In this document: positions 6,868-61,813 of the stretch, in pieces
Position numbering within the stretch: the stretch's first letter is position 1
Layout of the letters: each line of letters begins with the position of its first letter
DNA from: Eledone cirrhosa
Taxonomy: Eukaryota
Reading direction: 5' to 3'
Length of the DNA: 64,000 bases
NCBI GenBank assembly: GCA_964016885.1
Contig: OZ024740.1
Span: forward strand, 84,444,001-84,508,000
Translations under genes and position numbers: made by a program
Notes under the pieces: generated by a model
The model's database searches: none
Seen by the model: the letters and a program-made list of their open reading frames with translations, nothing else
What the model was told of the DNA's origin: nothing

Positions 6868-6942
<75 letters not shown>

Positions 6943-7060
6943 GTGACATGACTGGTCCTTTGAATTACATGTTCAGTTCCTGAGATACCCAAGCTGTCAT
7001 ATGGTGGGATCGAACCTGGGAACTTAAACATTCGGTCATACAGCGTTTATACATACATAC

Positions 7061-8088
7061 ATGGTGGCTGCCAACTCGTTTTCGAGTACGGCCACTACTT
7101 TATATCCATGTAGGAGAACCCCTACCGATGCGCTGAACGAGTATGACTTTTTATTCCAGCCAGCGACTTGAAAACTGGCACAATCACTACACTTGTGACA
7201 ATTATTGACACATAGTGTTGGGCCCATGGTACCACGTGATGACAAGTGCAGAGAGATCTCCAGATATAAAGCAATGCCTGTGCCGTGAAGCTTTTATAGT
7301 GAGCAAAGGCAATGCACAAAGCCAGTCCCACTCTCTTAACCAAGATGATATTTACCAAAAAGAAGAACAAGTCAACATCATTGGATACCATCAGGGTTGC
7401 AGGTGTTATATCAGAGTTTTCCTTCTCCTAGAATTCTGCCTTGACAAAGGCTAAGGGGTCATCTCTCCCGGTGATTTTAGATGGCCATTGACTCTTAAGA
7501 GCTCCTTTGCCCTTTTGACAGGTTTTGTTTTTAGTCCTGTAGGATGTCCAAAGTCACCCTCCTCACCAAGAAACCTTGGTGGGGTTGCCAGTTTAGTCGC
7601 CAACGACCCGACCATGAGACAGGTTGTACTGGGATACATGTTACCAGTAGCACCAACTGGTGACCTGACATACATACATACATATATACATACATACATA
7701 CATACATACATACATACATACATACATACATACATACATACATACATACATACATACATACATACATACATACATACGTACATGATGGCTGCCCCTCGTT
7801 ATCGAGTATGGCCATTGCACGATATACCATTATTAATAATTATTAATTAATTCTATCGTGCAATGCCTGTGCGTGAAGATATTTTTTAAAGTGAGGAAAG
7901 ACTGTGCACTGAGCCAATCCCACTCTCTGAGCGACAGTAGCTATAACCCGAAAAGAAGAAAGGATCAACATCATCAGTAACTACTGAGCCGCAGGTTTTA
8001 TGTCGGAGTTATCCCAGTTTCCTGAGTTGCCTTCTCCTGGAACAATGCCCTGACAAAGTCTAGGGGTCCTTCACTCCCATATACATAC

Positions 8089-8122
<34 letters not shown>

Positions 8123-8128
8123 ACATAC

Positions 8129-8166
<38 letters not shown>

Positions 8167-9975
8167 ATACATACATATATACATACATATATATATATAC
8201 ATACACATATATATACATACATATATACATACATATATATATGGTGGCTGCCAACTCGTTTTCGAGTACGGCCATTACTTTATAGCCATGTAGGAGAACC
8301 CCTACCGATGCGCTGAACGACTTGAAAACTCTGGTACAAACACTACACCTGTGACAATTATTGACACATAGTGCTGGGCCCATGGTACCATGTGACGACA
8401 AGTGCAGAGAGATCTCCAGATATAAAGCAATGCCTGTGCCGTGAACCTTTTATAGTGAGCAAAGGCACTGCACAAAGCCAGTCCCACTCTCTTAACCAAG
8501 ATGATATTTACCAAAAATAAGAACAAGTCAACATCATTGGATACCATCAGGGTTGCAGGTGTTATATCAGAGTTTTCCTTCTCCTAGAATTCTGCCTTGA
8601 CAAAGGCTAAGGGATCATCTCTCCCGGTGATTTTGAATGGCCAGTGACTCTTAAGAGCTCCTTTGCCCTTTGGCAGGTTTTGTTTTTAGTCCTGCAGTAT
8701 GTCCAAAGTCACCCTCCTCACCAAGAAACCTTGGTGGGGTTGCCAGTTTAGTCGCCAACGACTCGACCATGAGACATGTTGTACTGGGATACATGTTACC
8801 AGTAGCACCAACTGGTGACCTGACATACGTACATACATGCATACATACATACGTACATACGTACATACATACATACTTGCCACCAGGAAGGTGGCCGGTC
8901 AAAAAAATTTACTCGAAATTAAGAGAAAGAGATAACATACATACATGGTGGCTGCCAACTCGTTTTCGAGTACGGCCACTACTTTATATCCATGTAGGAG
9001 AAGCCCTACTGATGCGCTGAACGAGTGTGACATTTTAGTCCAGCCAGCGACTTGAAAACTCTGGTACAAACACTACACTTTGACAATTACTGACACATAG
9101 TGCTGGGCCCATTGTACCCTGTGATAACAAGCGCAGAGAGATCTCCAGATATAAAGCAATGCATGTGCCGTGAAGCTTTTATAGTGAGCAAAGGCACTGC
9201 ACAAAGCCAGTCCCACTCTCTTAACCAAGATGATATTTACCAAAAAGAAGAACAAGTCAACACCATTGTACTGGGATACATGTTACCAGTAGCACCAACT
9301 GGTGACCTGACATACATACATACATACATACATACATACATACATACATACATACATACATACATACATACATACATACATACATACATGGTGGCTGCCA
9401 ACTCGTTTTCGAGTACGGCCACTACTTTATATCCATGTAGGAGAACCCCTACCGATGCGCTGAACGAGTGTGACTTTTTAGTCCAGCCAGCGACTTGAAA
9501 ACTCTGGTACAAACACTACACTTGTGACAATTATTGACACATAGTGCTGGGCCCATGGTACCATGTGGCGGCAAGTGCAGAGAGATCTCCAGATATAAAG
9601 CAATGCCTGTGCCGTGAACCTTTTATAGTGAGCAAAGGCACTGCACAAAGCCAGTCCCACTCTCTTAACCAACATGATATTTACATCATTGGATACCATC
9701 AGGGTTGCAGGTGTTATATCAGAGTTTTCCTTCTCCTAGAATTCTGCCTTGACAAAGGCTAAGGGGTCATCTCTCCCAGTGATTTTGGATGGCCATTGAC
9801 TCTTAAGAGCTCCTTTGCCCTTTGACAGGTTTTGTTTTTAGTCCTGCAGGATGTCCAAAGTCACCCTCCTCACCAAGAAACCTTAGTGGGGTTGCCAGTT
9901 TAGTCGCCAACGACCCGACCATGAGACAGGTTGTACTGGGATACATGTTACCAGTAGCACCAAGTGGTGACCTGA
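7061..9975 (-). mobile_element. Array of a ~600 bp non-coding retroelement in (TACA)n
   Basis: Copies 7061-7668, 8241-8823, 8945-9310 (internally deleted), 9388-9975 and a diverged relative 7782-8078; shared ends ATGGTGGCTGCC..GGTGACCTGA abut (TACA)n. Confidence 0.9.
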
Positions 9976-10959
9976 CATAAACATACATACATACATACAT
10001 ACATACATACATACATACATACATACATACATACATACATACATACATACATACATACATACATACATACATGCATACATAGCAGATGAAAAGTTTTATA
10101 CTTCTCAGTAGAAGGTCATGCATGTCTATGTTGCTAGGAACCCTCAGAACCAAAGTCACCCGTTTTGGATCAACGATTGGTACTGGTATATTCGCTCTCA
10201 CTTTGAAGTGCGTTCTTCTGTCTCCCAGAAACAGGAAATAACAAAATGCACATACACGATGGGAACGAAGGTAAGATATCTAGACGCAACAATAGATACA
10301 GGCTCTGTAGAATACATACAAATTAAAAGTAACTGTCTGAAAATATCCTCACAATATACCAACTTATGATACTGTAACCGTAATATCATGCAATGCAGAC
10401 CGCTAAATGGATAGACCTTAATATAATGGAGGAGGACATGCATACTCGTTCGTATGTACAACATACACTTACGTGCCATTAACTCAATTGTGAAAATATG
10501 TCAAACAATCCAGAAGTTTAGCTTGTAATAAGTAAATATGCTCACGTGTAGACATACAAATGTATGCTTATGTACAGGTACATATTTCAAATATACATAA
10601 GTGTAGACATACAAACGTATACTTATGTACATGTACATAAGTCAAAATATACAGATTCTCGCATTAGTTGAGAATTAATTTCTATACTGTATTAAAGCAT
10701 TTTTGAAAAATACATTTTTCTTGGTTATTCGGTCTTGAATTAGCAAACTGGTTGAGTTGACAAAGGATGAAAATGATTTTATATAGTGTTTTTTTATAAT
10801 AATTTGATTTGTTATGTTGTTCTGGGAATTCCATTCTTTAGTTGGGTAAAAGTAGATTTCCATAGCTAAAGTAATAAGAGTGTCGCCCTACTGTAAACTT
10901 TTACCTAAACTTATTAACGGCCCATTATAATGGGAAAGTGGAATACCGTTGGTGGCAAA

Positions 10960-17679: not shown

Positions 17680-18415
17680 TTTTAGGCACAAGGCCAGCAA
17701 TTACCCAGGACATTACTGGTACTTTATTTTATCGACCCCATAAGGATGAAAGGCAAAGTTAAACTCGGCGGGATTTGAACTCAGATCATAAAGGGACGTA
17801 ACTCTATGGTTATAATAATTGTTTCTACTTTTGGCACAAGGCCAGCAATTACCCAATGCATTACTGGTACTTTATTCTATCGACCCCGGAAGGATGAAAG
17901 CCAAAGTTAACCTCGGCGGGATTTGAACTCAGATCATACAGGGAGGTAACTCTATGCTTCAAAGCATGGCATCCGATCCTCTACCGATACTGCCAATCCA
18001 CCGCCTTATAATGCTTATAATAATTGTTTCTACTTTTTGGCACAAGGCCAGCAATTACCCAGTATATTACTGGTACTTTATTTTATCGACCCCGTAAGGA
18101 TGAAAGCCAAAGTTAACCTCGGCGGGATTTGAACTCAGATCATACAGGGAGGTAACTCTATGCTTCAAAGCATGGCATCCGATCCTCTACCGATACTGCC
18201 AATCCACCGCCTTATAATGCTTATAATAATTGTTTCTACTTTTTGGCACAAGGCCAGCAATTACCCAGTATATTACTGGTACTTTATTTTATCGACCCCG
18301 TAAGGATGAAAGGCAAAGTTAACCTCGGCGGGATTTGAACTCAGATCGTAAAGGGACGTAACTCTTTTCGTCAGGCATGGCGTCCGACCCTCTACTGATA
18401 CTGCCAATCCATCAT
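17680..18415 (-). mobile_element. Four tandem SINE copies
   Basis: Units ~17680-17808, 17812-18006, 18018-18211, 18222-18415, partly joined by TTATAATGCTTATAATAAT. Confidence 0.9.
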
Positions 18416-18494
18416 TCCTTTATATATATAATGCTTATAATAATAATAAACAAAAAGGACTGTTACTTAATTCCATATATATATACACATACAT

Positions 18495-32436: not shown

Positions 32437-33042
32437 ATGGTGGCTGCCAACTCGTTTTCGAGTACGGCCACTACTTCATATCCATGTAGGAGAACCTCTA
32501 CCGATGCGCTGAATGACTGACTTTTTAGTCCAGCCAGCGACTTGAAAACTCTGGTACAAACACTACACTTGTGACAATTATTGACACATAGTGCTAGGCC
32601 CATGGTACCATGTGACGACAAGTGCAGAGAGATCTCCAGATATAAAGCAATGCCTGTGCCGTGAAGCTTTTATAGTGAGCAAAGGCACTGCACAAAGCCA
32701 GTCCCACTCTCTTAACCAAGATGATATTTACCAAAAAGAAGAACAAGTCAACATCATTGGATACCATCAGGGTTGCAGGTGTTATATCAGAGTTTTCCTT
32801 CTCCTAGAATTCTGCCTTGACAAAGGCTAAGGGGTCATCTCTCCCGGTGATTCTGGATGGCCATTGACTCTTAAGAGCTGTTTGCCCTTTGACAGGTTTT
32901 GTTTTTAGTCCTGCAGGATGCCCAAAGTCACCCTCCTCACCAAGAAACCTTGGTGGGGTTGCCAGTTTAGTCGCCAACGACCCGACCATGAGACAGGTTG
33001 TACTGGGATACATGTTACCAGTAGCACCAAGTGGTGACCTGA
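32437..33042 (-). mobile_element. (TACA)n-inserted ~600 bp element, solo copy
   Basis: Matches 7061-7668; absent from the homologous arm at ~38500-38520. Confidence 0.92.
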
Positions 33043-33168
33043 CATACATACATACATACATACATACATACACATACACATATACATACACACACACATA
33101 TACATATATACACACACATACATATATATAACCCATTAGCAACCCCGCAGCACGTTTATTCTCATATT

Positions 33169-61056: not shown

Positions 61057-61813
61057 TAATAATAATATTTTCGAATCAGCGAGCGAGTTTGAAATTATTA
61101 TAAATGTAAGCTATCGCCGTATTTTGACTGAAGAAATTAAAGAAATTATTTAGCCTGATAGTGGGGTTAAGAACCCTCGGAGAAATGGAAAAAGATGAGT
61201 ATTGACGTACATGGGAGTCGAACCCATATCTTTGGTTATCCAAACCACTGTGCTACCATTTACAGCAACACATCACCCGTCTTTTTCCATTCAAATTAGA
61301 AGTTATAATCTTAGCAACTGTAATGTCAAGTAATAATTGTTTCTACTTTTGGCACAAGGCCAGCAATTACTCCAGTGTATTACTGGTACTTTATTTTATC
61401 GACCCTGTAAGGATGAAAGGCAAAGTTAACCTCGGCGGAATTTGAACTCAGAATGGCAAGGGCCGTAACTCTATGCGTCAAAGCATGGCGTCCGACCCTC
61501 TACCGATACTGCCAATCCAAGTAATAATATTTTCGAATCAGCGAGCGAGTTTGAAATTATTATAAATGTCAGCTATCGCCGTATTTTGACTCCCATGTAC
61601 GTCAATACTCATCTTTTTCCATTTCTCCGAGGGTTCTTAGCCCCAATATCAGGCTAAATAATTTTTTTAATTTCTTTAGTCAAAATACAGCGATACATTT
61701 ATAATAATTTCAAATTCTCTCGTTGATTCGAAAATATTATTACTTGACATTACAGTTGCTAAGATTATAGCTTCTAATTTGAATGGAAAACGACCGGTGA
61801 TGTGTTGGTGTAA
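61057..61813. mobile_element. ~270 bp tRNA-like monomer: tandem plus fold-back, split by a SINE (61332-61519, -)
   Basis: Unit start recurs at 61521-61590, inverted copy 61588-61813; SINE TSD CAAGTAATAAT; relative starts at ~63948. Confidence 0.8.
61203..61274 (-). pseudogene. tRNA-like cloverleaf (72 nt)
   Basis: Acceptor GATGTGT/GTACGTC, anticodon arm GTGGT-TTGGATA-ACCAA, T arm ATGGG-TTCGACT-CCCAT. Confidence 0.55.

What the first reader, a model, noticed from the sequence alone, without database searches (positions are those of the whole stretch)
7061..9975. Non-coding retroelement that targets and regenerates (TACA)n
Seen: five insertions in 3 kb, all in the same orientation with shared ends in (TACA)n-type tracts. 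The copies carry independent deletions and include a diverged subfamily (7782-8078), which points to repeated insertion rather than simple tandem duplication. On the minus strand the element ends in a hairpin (CTCG-AAAA-CGAG) and a (TATG)n tail, so each insertion makes a new target. No tRNA head is evident. Established analogues are microsatellite-specific non-LTR elements (Dong/R4, Waldo and Mino of R1, Kibi and Koshi of Tx1). The autonomous partner is not in this window.
Basis: partly seen in the sequence, partly recalled or inferred. Interest (0 to 1): 0.75.

Follow-up and report, generated by a model that had tools for sequence, protein, structure and literature searches.

The report
LINE-derived retroelements nested in microsatellites
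Five copies of a very abundant non-coding retroelement, whose 5' part and 3' stem-loop match RTE-like LINEs elsewhere in the genome, sit head to tail in one (ACAT)n tract; the family is likely copied by such a LINE's enzymes into A-Y-A-T sites, which in this genome lie mostly inside (AT)n and (ACAT)n microsatellites.

Summary
Window 7063-9979 carries four copies of a ~610-nt element (family A) and one 5'-truncated copy of a related family (B), all in one orientation and separated by ACAT/AT tracts. A sixth A copy lies at 32439-33046. The family has tens of thousands of copies genome-wide, some identical. Its sense strand is the window's minus strand: 25 of 60 copies anchored on the hairpin end reach the other end, against 40 of 45 the other way round. 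A and B have no tRNA, 5S or 7SL head. They share a 5' part and a 3' stem-loop with single-ORF LINEs (endonuclease, reverse transcriptase, C2H2 fingers) of the kind published as octopus RTE-2_OV. One such family (E) has intact 1181-aa ORFs. The partner is therefore RTE-like, not R1, Tx1 or Dong. Insertion follows a junction rule, AYAT^A (56 of 60 copies), with 10-14-nt target duplications. No element-borne tail is seen, so "regenerates (TACA)n" is not supported. Tract preference beyond the short motif is modest (68% observed against 53% expected). A Dong-like LINE fragment at 8870-8935 uses the same tract in the opposite orientation. Verdict: a new member of a known kind, of moderate interest.

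The parts
7063..7672 (-). Family A copy 1, complete (610 nt). The 3' stem-loop lies at 7063-7098 and the 5' end at 7672.
   Evidence: 97.0% to the copy at 32439-33046
7668..7783 (.). (ACAT)29 tract between copies
7784..8078 (-). Family B copy, 5'-truncated. It is 90% identical to the 5' UTR and 95% identical to the last 44 nt of LINE family E.
8079..8242 (.). Complex ATAC/AT tract
8243..8827 (-). Family A copy with both ends present; sense positions 510-533 are deleted.
8823..8876 (.). Imperfect (ACAT)13 tract
8870..8935 (+). 5'-truncated 3' end (about 65 nt) of an unrelated ~4.3-kb LINE (reverse transcriptase plus C-terminal restriction-like endonuclease; Dong/R4-like). It lies in the opposite orientation to A.
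8947..9314 (-). Family A copy with both ends present; sense positions 47-287 are deleted.
9310..9389 (.). (ACAT)20 tract
9390..9979 (-). Family A copy with both ends present; sense positions 295-315 are deleted.
9981..10081 (.). (ACAT)25 tract beyond the last copy
32439..33046 (-). Solitary complete family A copy. It is identical over 602 nt to 5 copies on other contigs.

Best explanation
The stretch holds four copies of a ~610-nt non-coding element (family A) and one of a related family (B), all on the minus strand. Both families share a 5' part and a 3' stem-loop with ORF-bearing RTE-like LINEs found elsewhere in the genome. They are therefore likely internally deleted, non-autonomous LINE derivatives that are copied by target-primed reverse transcription.

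Shown: (1) The family is huge and young. (2) Truncation is one-sided, which fixes the hairpin end as the 3' end. (3) Target-site duplications of 10-14 nt exist. (4) The junction is AYAT next to the element's CCACC end. (5) The 5' 400 nt of A is homologous to the 5' UTR of LINE group D. (6) B matches both ends of LINE family E. (7) E has intact ORFs with endonuclease, reverse transcriptase and C2H2 fingers. (8) The last 30 nt of A match E at 26 of 30 positions, and all differences fall in unpaired positions of the predicted stem-loop.

Inferred: (1) The LINE's endonuclease nicks the strand that reads A-Y-A-T^A. (2) The freed ...AT-3' end pairs with the AU that follows CCACC in the RNA and primes reverse transcription, after the LINE protein has bound the terminal stem-loop. 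(3) A second nick 10-14 nt away gives the duplication. (4) Early termination gives the 5'-truncated copies. (5) Family E (or a close relative) is the present source of protein for A.

More than half of all AYATA sites in this genome lie inside (AT)n or (ACAT)n tracts. Most insertions therefore land in such tracts, split them without destroying them, and leave both halves open to the next insertion. That gives head-to-tail nests like this one.
For: Abundance and youth: the 3'-end 31-mer has 22,792 exact genomic matches, with 0 for the reversed control. Six copies, the window's own included, are 100% identical over 602 nt yet have different flanks.

Orientation: in C1:0-18 Mb, 25 of 60 copies anchored on the hairpin end reach the other end; the other 35 stop at scattered points from position 47 to 584. 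Of 45 copies anchored on the other end, 40 have the hairpin end. I paired 22 of these by coordinate from the lists, and 18 of the 23 fetched copies were complete. The 5 exceptions are interrupted or rearranged. Fisher p = 6e-7.

Junction: AT precedes the 3' junction in 57 of 60 copies and AYAT in 56 of 60. Flanks are AC-type in 46 copies against GT-type in 4, out of 60.

Target duplications directly abutting the 3' end: L034 12 nt, L049 10 nt, L062 12 nt, L120 14 nt, L005 10-14 nt.

LINE relatives: group D has endonuclease, reverse transcriptase and two C2H2 motifs. A sense 20-402 aligns to D-group 5' UTRs with E-values down to 4e-63. For family E, 6 of 6 fetched copies have a 1181-aa ORF, and Pfam finds Exo_endo_phos, RVT_1 and C2H2. 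Of 32 E-type hits, 19 have open frames of 1200 aa or more without stops. B matches E over B 2-253 at 90% and B 257-299 at 95%. The A and E 3' ends score 44 against a shuffle maximum of 28.

Stem-loop: it is kept in 4 families, with 2 of 9 pairs changed on both sides.

Coding and heads: the longest ORF wholly inside A is 57 aa, and no RNA-gene head was found.

Literature: RTE-2_OV has the same architecture, with a microsatellite right after its ORF (PMC9115989, section 6 read). Bipartite ORF-less derivatives are reported from RTE, Ingi, Vingi and R2 only (PMC5786205, passages).
Against: No LINE with A's own 5' part was found: 12 of 12 D-group loci are only 70-73% identical to A over that part. 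E lacks A's conserved 5' module. A's partner is therefore inferred from 30 nt of 3' end alone. A's middle-3' part (sense 403-575) has no significant match to D's 3' region: score 29 against a shuffle maximum of 36. Assignment of D and E to the RTE clade rests on domain architecture and on a published look-alike, not on a phylogeny made here. No transcript was seen. The stem-loop covariation rests on only four families. Which enzyme nicks, and where exactly, is read from 5 target duplications.
Confidence: 0.78

Rival explanations
1. It is a microsatellite-specific SINE-like element that carries its own (TATG)n tail and so regenerates its target. Its partner is a repeat-recognising LINE of the R1 (Waldo/Mino), Tx1 (Kibi/Koshi) or R4/Dong kind.
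For: Both flanks are AY-type tracts of 12 nt or more in 26 of 60 copies, and at least one flank is in 51 of 60. The orientation in the tract is fixed. Waldo elements target ACAY repeats (PMC3812793, passages). A Dong-like LINE does use the same tracts.
Against: Target duplications abut the 3' end with no tail units between them, in 5 of 5 readable cases. The 3'-side tract is under 12 nt in 19 of 60 copies. One-sided tracts fall about as often on the 5' side as on the 3' side: by my reading of the rows, about 10 each. The element's relatives have one ORF with an N-terminal AP-type endonuclease and C2H2 fingers. The Dong-like LINE lies in the opposite orientation and shares no ends with A.
Confidence: 0.08
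2. Same element and same LINE partner, but the machinery recognises the repeat tract itself (its length or structure), or needs long pairing between a read-through (AUGU)n/(AU)n RNA tail and the nicked tract. Under this reading the preference is true microsatellite homing, not a 4-5-nt site preference.
For: 68% (41 of 60) of junctions have 12 nt or more of tract on the 3' side, against 53.4% of 11,073 AYAT^A sites in 200 kb of genome taken at round coordinates (binomial p = 0.027, rank test p = 0.033). Flank types on the two sides correlate (rho 0.53, p = 0.005, n = 26). For RTE relatives, a link between 3' repeat units and the target has been proposed (PMC6007223, abstract).
Against: The excess over the motif null is small and is not significant against the window-based null (rank test p = 0.14). 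Nine of 60 copies have under 12 nt of tract on both sides. Near-identical young copies sit in pure (AT)n as well as in (ACAT)n. In L062 the junction is CT in a non-microsatellite repeat.
Confidence: 0.3
3. It is a non-autonomous rolling-circle element (Helitron or Helentron type) with a 3' hairpin that inserts at AT dinucleotides.
For: There is a hairpin about 10 nt from one end, the element lies next to AT, and truncated copies keep the hairpin end.
Against: Target duplications of 10-14 nt are present. The other end varies by a few nt in about 6 of 30 young copies. The ends are not TC...CTRR (the motif is recalled, not from a call). The element shares parts with reverse-transcriptase LINEs.
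Confidence: 0.01
4. The array is a local tandem duplication or satellite: unequal crossing-over in the microsatellite, not repeated insertion.
For: Five units in one orientation, separated by the same kind of repeat.
Against: The copies are no more alike than random genomic pairs. They carry different deletions. One unit belongs to another family, and a foreign LINE fragment sits between two units. Spacings of 1180, 704 and 443 nt are irregular.
Confidence: 0.03

Closest known systems
RTE-2_OV / RTE-2-type LINEs of octopus (Petrosino et al. 2022, PMC9115989)
   Same: One ORF of about 1100-1180 aa with endonuclease, reverse transcriptase and C2H2 zinc finger. A long 5' UTR. A microsatellite directly after the ORF or 3' end (section 6 read; D and E).
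   Different: No sequence comparison could be made here: in the 8 of 12 supplementary files that were searched, the two 8-residue motifs from this genome's LINE proteins and a 13-nt stem-loop motif were not found. The best outside protein is only 63% identical. Site preference, orientation in the tract and non-autonomous derivatives do not come up in the parts of the paper that I read.
Bipartite ORF-less non-autonomous LINEs (Bov-A from BovB/RTE, RIME from Ingi, NARTc from L1Tc, Vingi-1_EE derivatives; Kojima 2018, PMC5786205)
   Same: Made of a LINE 5' part plus its 3' end, with no ORF and no RNA-gene head.
   Different: A is a mosaic. Its 5' part is nearest LINE group D and its 3' stem-loop is nearest LINE family E. 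No LINE with both A-type ends was found.
Waldo (R1 clade), which inserts in (ACAY)n; also Mino, Kibi and Koshi
   Same: Insertion within ACAY-type repeats in a fixed orientation (PMC3812793, passages; here).
   Different: The related LINEs here have one ORF and C2H2 fingers, and no gag-like ORF1 of 60 aa or more was found. Pure (AT)n is used as often as ACAT. Preference for the tract beyond the AYAT^A motif is only modest.
Dong (R4 clade), which inserts in (TAA)n
   Same: A Dong-like LINE is present in this very tract at 8870-8935: reverse transcriptase plus a C-terminal CCHC and PD..E..K motif read by eye from the translation. Its nearest solved proteins are R2.
   Different: It is not A's partner: it lies in the opposite orientation and shares no termini. 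Its flanks are (ACAT)n, not (TAA)n.
RTE-related SINEs with a microsatellite-like 3' end (Nishiyama and Ohshima 2018, PMC6007223; Tay et al. 2010, PMC2887409)
   Same: The 3' repeat unit and the first target bases are linked. 5'-truncated copies with SSR flanks are common (abstracts read).
   Different: Those papers describe a T-stretch signature or tail-generated SSRs. Here the junction is AYAT^A, and no tail is added in the readable cases.

Membership tests
Bipartite non-autonomous LINE derivative | 5' part homologous to the 5' UTR of an autonomous LINE | tested here: met
   A sense 20-402 against D-group LINEs: 70-73% identity, E-values down to 4e-63, with the module 20-135 at about 90%. B 2-253 against E: 90%.
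Bipartite non-autonomous LINE derivative | 3' end shared with the LINE | tested here: met
   B's last 44 nt are 95% identical to E. A's last 30 nt match E at 26 of 30 positions, score 44 against a shuffle maximum of 28.
Bipartite non-autonomous LINE derivative | No ORF for the LINE's protein | tested here: met
   The longest ORF wholly inside the 608-nt copy is 57 aa; longer ones run into the microsatellite flanks.
Bipartite non-autonomous LINE derivative | Both ends come from one and the same LINE family | tested here: inconclusive
   Met for B and E. For A, the 5' part is nearest D and the 3' end nearest E, and no A-type LINE was found in 12 D-group and 6 E loci.
Retroposon copied by target-primed reverse transcription | 5' truncation with a constant 3' end | tested here: met
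   25 of 60 against 40 of 45, Fisher p = 6e-7.
Retroposon copied by target-primed reverse transcription | Target-site duplications | tested here: met
   Readable in 5 copies, 10-14 nt. In most other copies the repeats make them unreadable: 28 of 40 candidates are simple repeats.
RTE clade of LINEs (for D and E) | Single ORF with an N-terminal AP-type endonuclease followed by reverse transcriptase, and no gag-like ORF1 | tested here: met
   Pfam Exo_endo_phos at residues 55-276 and RVT_1 at 595-862 in one 1181-aa ORF. No other + strand ORF of 60 aa or more inside the element upstream of it.
RTE clade of LINEs (for D and E) | Placement of the RT domain within the RTE clade in a phylogeny | not tested
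   No reference LINE sequences were at hand. The assignment leans on the published RTE-2_OV, which has the same architecture.
SINE with a Pol III head | tRNA-, 5S- or 7SL-derived 5' head | tested here: not met
   ARAGORN finds no tRNA in the copies. Rfam at E <= 1 gives only microsatellite-driven sub-threshold hits. A run of five T lies in the middle of the sense strand.
Microsatellite-specific LINE system (Waldo/Mino/Kibi/Dong type) | Insertion in one kind of repeat, in a fixed orientation | tested here: met
   AC-type flanks in 46 copies against GT-type in 4, out of 60. At least one flank of 12 nt or more of AY tract in 51 of 60.
Microsatellite-specific LINE system (Waldo/Mino/Kibi/Dong type) | Specificity for the repeat beyond a short nick-site motif | tested here: inconclusive
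   68% observed against 53% under the AYAT^A null: p = 0.027 with the genome sample, p = 0.14 (rank test) with the window null.
Helitron/Helentron | No target duplication; precise conserved termini | tested here: not met
   Target duplications are present and the 5' end is variable.

The most novel reading that the evidence does not exclude
An RTE-like LINE lineage with C2H2 fingers, together with its derivatives numbering tens of thousands, has evolved strand-specific homing to (AT)n and (ACAT)n tracts. An unrelated Dong-like, restriction-endonuclease LINE homes to the same tracts on the other strand. The two nick sites implied by their junctions lie 2 nt apart on opposite strands of the ACAT unit. 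Microsatellites that make up about 7% of this genome would then be shared, self-renewing landing pads, and the growth of tracts and of elements would be coupled.
Probability: 0.3. Interest if true: 0.65.

Novelty: new member of a known kind. Interest (0 to 1): 0.4.

Why it matters
The report gives a concrete, testable system for how RTE-type LINEs choose their sites: an intact LINE family, a very abundant and young passenger that shares only a 30-nt stem-loop with it, and a sharp junction rule. It also explains head-to-tail nests of elements in the microsatellites of a genome in which about 7% of sampled bases are AY-type tracts. It shows that two unrelated LINE machineries use the same tracts in opposite orientations. 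For annotation, these 600-nt units are LINE derivatives and should not be filed as SINEs or satellites. The ACAT or AT flanks should not be read as element tails.

Tried and rejected
RNA evidence: the run search listed no RNA holder, and nothing was laid.

I went on with a protein search instead.

Search for A's own parent LINE: none of the 12 D-group loci exceeds 73% identity over A's 5' part. A left-anchored copy of such a LINE would stop aligning near + strand position 170-210; the four nearest copies (L061, L082, L036, L080) continue into a tract, unrelated sequence or an inverted piece of A itself.

Homology of A sense 403-575 to D's 3' coding end: the alignment is colinear, but it scores 29 against a shuffle maximum of 36, so I do not claim it.

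Rfam: only sub-threshold microsatellite look-alikes, plus a Flavivirus_SLIV hit at E 0.28-0.65 on A's 5' end, treated as chance.

Literature by sequence words: 0 papers. Literature on RTE insertion into microsatellites: searches list no such report, but Repbase and Dfam could not be consulted.

Supplements of PMC9115989: 8 files were searched and 4 were not; neither the two 8-residue motifs from this genome's LINE proteins nor the 13-nt stem-loop motif turned up.

Earlier findings of this scan: nothing.

Automated search for target duplications over 118 copies gave mostly ambiguous higher-order repeats, so only hand-checked cases are used.

The Helitron, MITE and tandem-duplication readings were rejected; see the rivals. 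For the MITE reading, no terminal inverted repeat is visible between the two ends.
Full report
WHAT IS THERE. Between 7063 and 9979 the + strand carries five units that begin GGTGGCTGCC...(hairpin CTCGTTTTCGAG) and, where complete, end ...GGTGACCTGACATA. The 32-nt left end occurs five times in the window (7063, 8243, 8947, 9390, 32439). The 33-nt right end also occurs five times (7640, 8795, 9282, 9947, 33014). Both are always on the + strand, and none is expected by chance.

Measured against the solitary copy at 32439-33046:
- 7063-7672 is complete.
- 8243-8827 lacks sense positions 510-533.
- 8947-9314 lacks sense positions 47-287.
- 9390-9979 lacks sense positions 295-315.

The unit at 7784-8078 belongs to a diverged family (B), about 73% identical to A over 157 nt. 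The units are separated by (ACAT)n or mixed ATAC/AT tracts. The four A copies are 95.4-97.4% alike in pairs. That is no closer than 60 random pairs of genomic copies (96.7 +/- 0.9%), so they arrived separately. The stretch 8870-8935 is not spacer. It is the last ~65 nt of a different LINE, on the + strand.

THE FAMILY IN THE GENOME. The window's genome is held (3.0 Gb; the window is C1:84,444,001-84,508,000).
- The left-end 31-mer has 22,792 exact matches, and the reversed control has 0.
- The right-end 31-mer has 10,077 exact matches.
- Only 22 of 40 sampled copies that possess the left end carry the exact 31-mer. The true number of 3' ends is therefore likely about 40,000.
- Hits to A in two of twenty 10-kb stretches taken at round coordinates (read as two copies; 200 kb in all) agree with tens of thousands.
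- Six copies, the window's own included, are 100% identical over 602 nt yet have different flanks. The family was therefore active very recently.

WHICH STRAND, AND WHAT KIND OF MOVEMENT. I took the first 60 left-anchored copies of contig C1, a sample ordered by position and not by score.
- 25 reach the right end; 35 stop at scattered points between position 47 and 584.
- Of the 45 right-anchored copies in the same 18 Mb, 22 pair with an exact left anchor. I made this pairing by coordinate from the lists.
- Of the other 23, which I fetched, 18 are complete.
- The remaining 5 are interrupted by other insertions, replaced, or rearranged.

So 40 of 45 against 25 of 60, Fisher p = 6e-7. The other end varies by a few nucleotides in some copies: gac, gaca, gacata or gaccata, in about 6 of 30.

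Readable target-site duplications abut the 3' end directly:
- L034: 12 nt.
- L049: 10 nt.
- L062: 12 nt, with 45 extra nt at the 5' junction.
- L120: 14 nt.
- L005: 10-14 nt.

One-sided truncation, a ragged 5' junction and duplications of 10-14 nt are the marks of target-primed reverse transcription by a LINE with an AP-type endonuclease. That link rests on established knowledge; the mechanism itself is inferred, not observed. These marks exclude a rolling-circle or cut-and-paste element.

NO HEAD, NO ORF. ARAGORN finds one tRNA in the window, far away at 61202-61275. Rfam at E <= 1 gives only sub-threshold, microsatellite-driven matches. The longest ORF wholly inside a copy is 57 aa. A run of five T lies in the middle of the sense strand, which argues against Pol III transcription; this is an inference.

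THE ORF-BEARING RELATIVES. Beside one fetched locus lay an element with a variant of A's 3' hairpin and with two C2H2 motifs in frame just upstream of it. Searching with that sequence gave LINE group D, with 1,241 candidates:
- It is about 3.9 kb long.
- Its 5' end resembles A's (...GGTTGCTCTCGAGTGCTACTGGTAAC).
- It has a 5' UTR of about 470 nt.
- One reading frame, broken in all 4 long copies fetched, codes for an AP-type endonuclease, a reverse transcriptase and two C2H2 fingers.
- Its stop codon lies about 45 nt before the 3' end ...GCAATACTCTTGGCAGAGTTTGCAGCCATC, which is followed by (AT)n or (ATGT)n.
- A sense 20-402 is homologous to this 5' UTR: 70-73% identity overall, E-values down to 4e-63, with positions 20-135 at about 90%.

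A protein search with a D fragment then showed a second family, E, at 57-58% identity. Of 32 such hits, 19 have open frames of 1200 aa or more without a stop. All 6 copies that I fetched have a 1181-aa ORF with Exo_endo_phos, RVT_1 and C2H2 matches. They are 97.7-98.8% alike, about 4.95 kb long, and end ...TGCAATGGCCATACTCGATAACGAGGGGGCAGCCATC|AT, in (ATGT)n or (AT)n flanks. No further + strand ORF of 60 aa or more lies inside the element upstream of the long ORF.

Family B is 90% identical to E's 5' UTR (B 2-253) and 95% identical to its last 44 nt. B is thus a two-part derivative of E. Longer B copies exist, so the window's B copy is 5'-truncated.

A's last 30 nt match E's at 26 of 30 positions (score 44, shuffle maximum 28). 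The four differences fall in positions that the consensus fold leaves unpaired. Across families A, B, C (seen in L102) and D, the two-tier stem-loop is kept, with 2 of 9 pairs changed on both sides. With four families this is modest support.

No LINE with A's own 5' part was found. A is therefore a mosaic, and its present source of protein (E, or something close to it) is inferred from the shared stem-loop and from E being intact. None of these LINE bodies lies in the window.

WHICH CLADE. The architecture is one ORF with endonuclease, reverse transcriptase and C-terminal C2H2 fingers, a long 5' UTR, and a microsatellite at the 3' end. That is the architecture of RTE-2_OV of Octopus vulgaris, which its authors placed in the RTE clade by phylogeny. 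They note that C2H2 fingers are rare in RTE, and they report a full RTE and a full Dong element in O. bimaculoides (PMC9115989; passages and section 6 read). ORF-less two-part derivatives are reported only from RTE, Ingi, Vingi and R2 (PMC5786205, passages). I made no phylogeny, so 'RTE-like' is an assignment by architecture. In the Protein Data Bank, E's reverse transcriptase is nearest L1 ORF2p. The best outside protein is 63% identical and unnamed.

THE TARGET. On the + strand the two bases before the 3' junction are AT in 57 of 60 copies. The four bases before it are ATAT in 30 and ACAT in 26. In L062 the junction is CT and the duplication includes it, so these bases belong to the target and the element ends at CCACC. 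The readable duplications give the nick as AYAT^A. On the strict definition (uninterrupted AT/AC dinucleotides):
- The 3'-side flank is a tract of 12 nt or more in 41 of 60 copies.
- The 5'-side flank is a tract of 12 nt or more in 36 of 60.
- At least one side is in 51 of 60.
- Tracts that contain C are on the + strand in 46 copies and on the other strand in 4.
- Flank types on the two sides correlate (rho 0.53, p = 0.005, n = 26), as expected if both come from one pre-existing tract.

IS IT THE TRACT OR A SHORT MOTIF? This genome is extraordinarily rich in such tracts. They make up 7.1% of 200 kb taken at round coordinates on ten contigs, and about 10% of the window outside the A copies. Of 11,073 AYAT^A sites in that sample, 53.4% already have 12 nt or more of tract on their 5' side. 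Of all AT sites, only 14.7% do. The observed 68.3% exceeds the motif null only modestly (binomial p = 0.027; rank test p = 0.033). Against the window's own null the rank test gives p = 0.14. The honest reading is a sharp junction rule, which by itself puts most copies into (AT)n and (ACAT)n tracts. Recognition of the tract as such is possible but unproven.

DOES IT REGENERATE THE TRACT? No sign of it. In all 5 readable cases the duplication touches the 3' end with no repeat units between them. In 19 of 60 copies the 3'-side tract is under 12 nt. Copies with a tract on one side only have it about as often on the 5' side as on the 3' side: by my reading of the rows printed, about ten each. An insertion splits a tract and leaves both halves usable, which is enough to build nests like this one.

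THE OTHER LINE IN THE TRACT. The fragment at 8870-8935 belongs to a ~4.33-kb LINE.
- It has a defined 5' end (AATGGCGACCGTTGTGG...).
- It has an RVT_1 domain and a C-terminal part with a CCHC motif and a PD...E...K motif, which I read by eye from the translation printed.
- It has a weak zf-RVT match.
- Its nearest solved relatives are R2 proteins (E = 2e-28).
- Its sense strand carries (ACAT)n on both sides in the full and truncated copies examined: 20 of 20 3' flanks by my reading, and the 5' flanks.

This is the opposite orientation to A, B, D and E. It is Dong/R4-like by architecture, but its target is not Dong's (TAA)n.

COMPARISON AND VERDICT. The finding works like the known microsatellite-inserting LINE systems in outcome, but it is not a member of their clades. 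It is a member of the known class of two-part non-autonomous LINE derivatives, here of RTE-like LINEs with C2H2 fingers. The link between an RTE relative's 3' repeat unit and its target has also been noted before (PMC6007223, abstract; PMC2887409, abstract). The review I read lists Waldo, Mino, Kibi, Koshi and Dong as microsatellite-targeting LINEs, and no RTE (PMC3812793, passages). My searches turned up no description of this family or of this junction rule. Repbase and Dfam could not be checked.

I rate it a new member of a known kind and of moderate interest. The most interesting open point is whether two unrelated LINE machineries truly home to the same tracts on opposite strands.

Noticed in passing
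window 8870-8935 (+); full copies in L135 (-), L137, L139: A ~4.33-kb LINE with reverse transcriptase and a C-terminal restriction-like endonuclease motif (Dong/R4-like; nearest solved proteins are R2). It sits in (ACAT)n with the ACAT strand as its sense strand, opposite to the RTE-like elements. This would be a target other than Dong's (TAA)n.
   Followed up: partly
L057, L071, L005, L099, L153 (flanks): A third repeat whose end ...GAAATTATAAAACCAGAAGAAC abuts (ATAC)n in the same orientation as the Dong-like LINE. It may be a passenger of that LINE.
   Followed up: no
20 stretches of 10 kb, L219-L238; window outside the A copies: About 7% of sampled bases (10% in the window) lie in uninterrupted AT/AC-type dinucleotide tracts of 12 nt or more. 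More than half of all AYATA pentamers lie in such tracts.
   Followed up: partly
window 32912-33027 (A sense 20-135), and the same part of the other A copies: This 5' module is about 90% identical to the 5' UTR of LINE group D, while the rest of the shared part is about 72% identical. By eye it forms several hairpins. It could be a promoter or an RNA-processing element; its function is unknown.
   Followed up: no
window about 18000-18430 (-): Two tandem copies of a tRNA-like SINE (...GTTCAAATCCCGCCGAGGTTAACTTTG...CGATAAAATAAAGTACCAGT) next to a long (AT)n tract. The same SINE interrupts an A copy in L132.
   Followed up: no
window 6940-7045 (-): A stretch with a tRNA T-arm-like motif (TCCCAGGTTCGATCCCACC), followed on that strand by (AC)34 at 6871-6939, directly beside the first A copy. 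It may be another SINE.
   Followed up: no
L102:1579-1870 and L107:1196-1487: Further families (C, D) with variant 3' stem-loops (loops AAAT and TGGC; the stem CTCG/CGAG is changed to CTCT/AGAG in D). This is a small superfamily of elements sharing ...GCAGCCRYC|AT.
   Followed up: partly
L213-L218, about 450-500 nt after the stop codon: LINE family E has a long 3' UTR that itself contains (GT)n, (ATT)n and a long T run before the terminal stem-loop. Two of the 6 copies (L215, L216) lack the terminal part.
   Followed up: no
L115: An A copy is interrupted by a ~600-nt perfect-palindrome-like insertion (MITE-like).
   Followed up: no
window 61202-61275 (-): tRNA-Ser (GGA) gene called by ARAGORN.
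   Followed up: no
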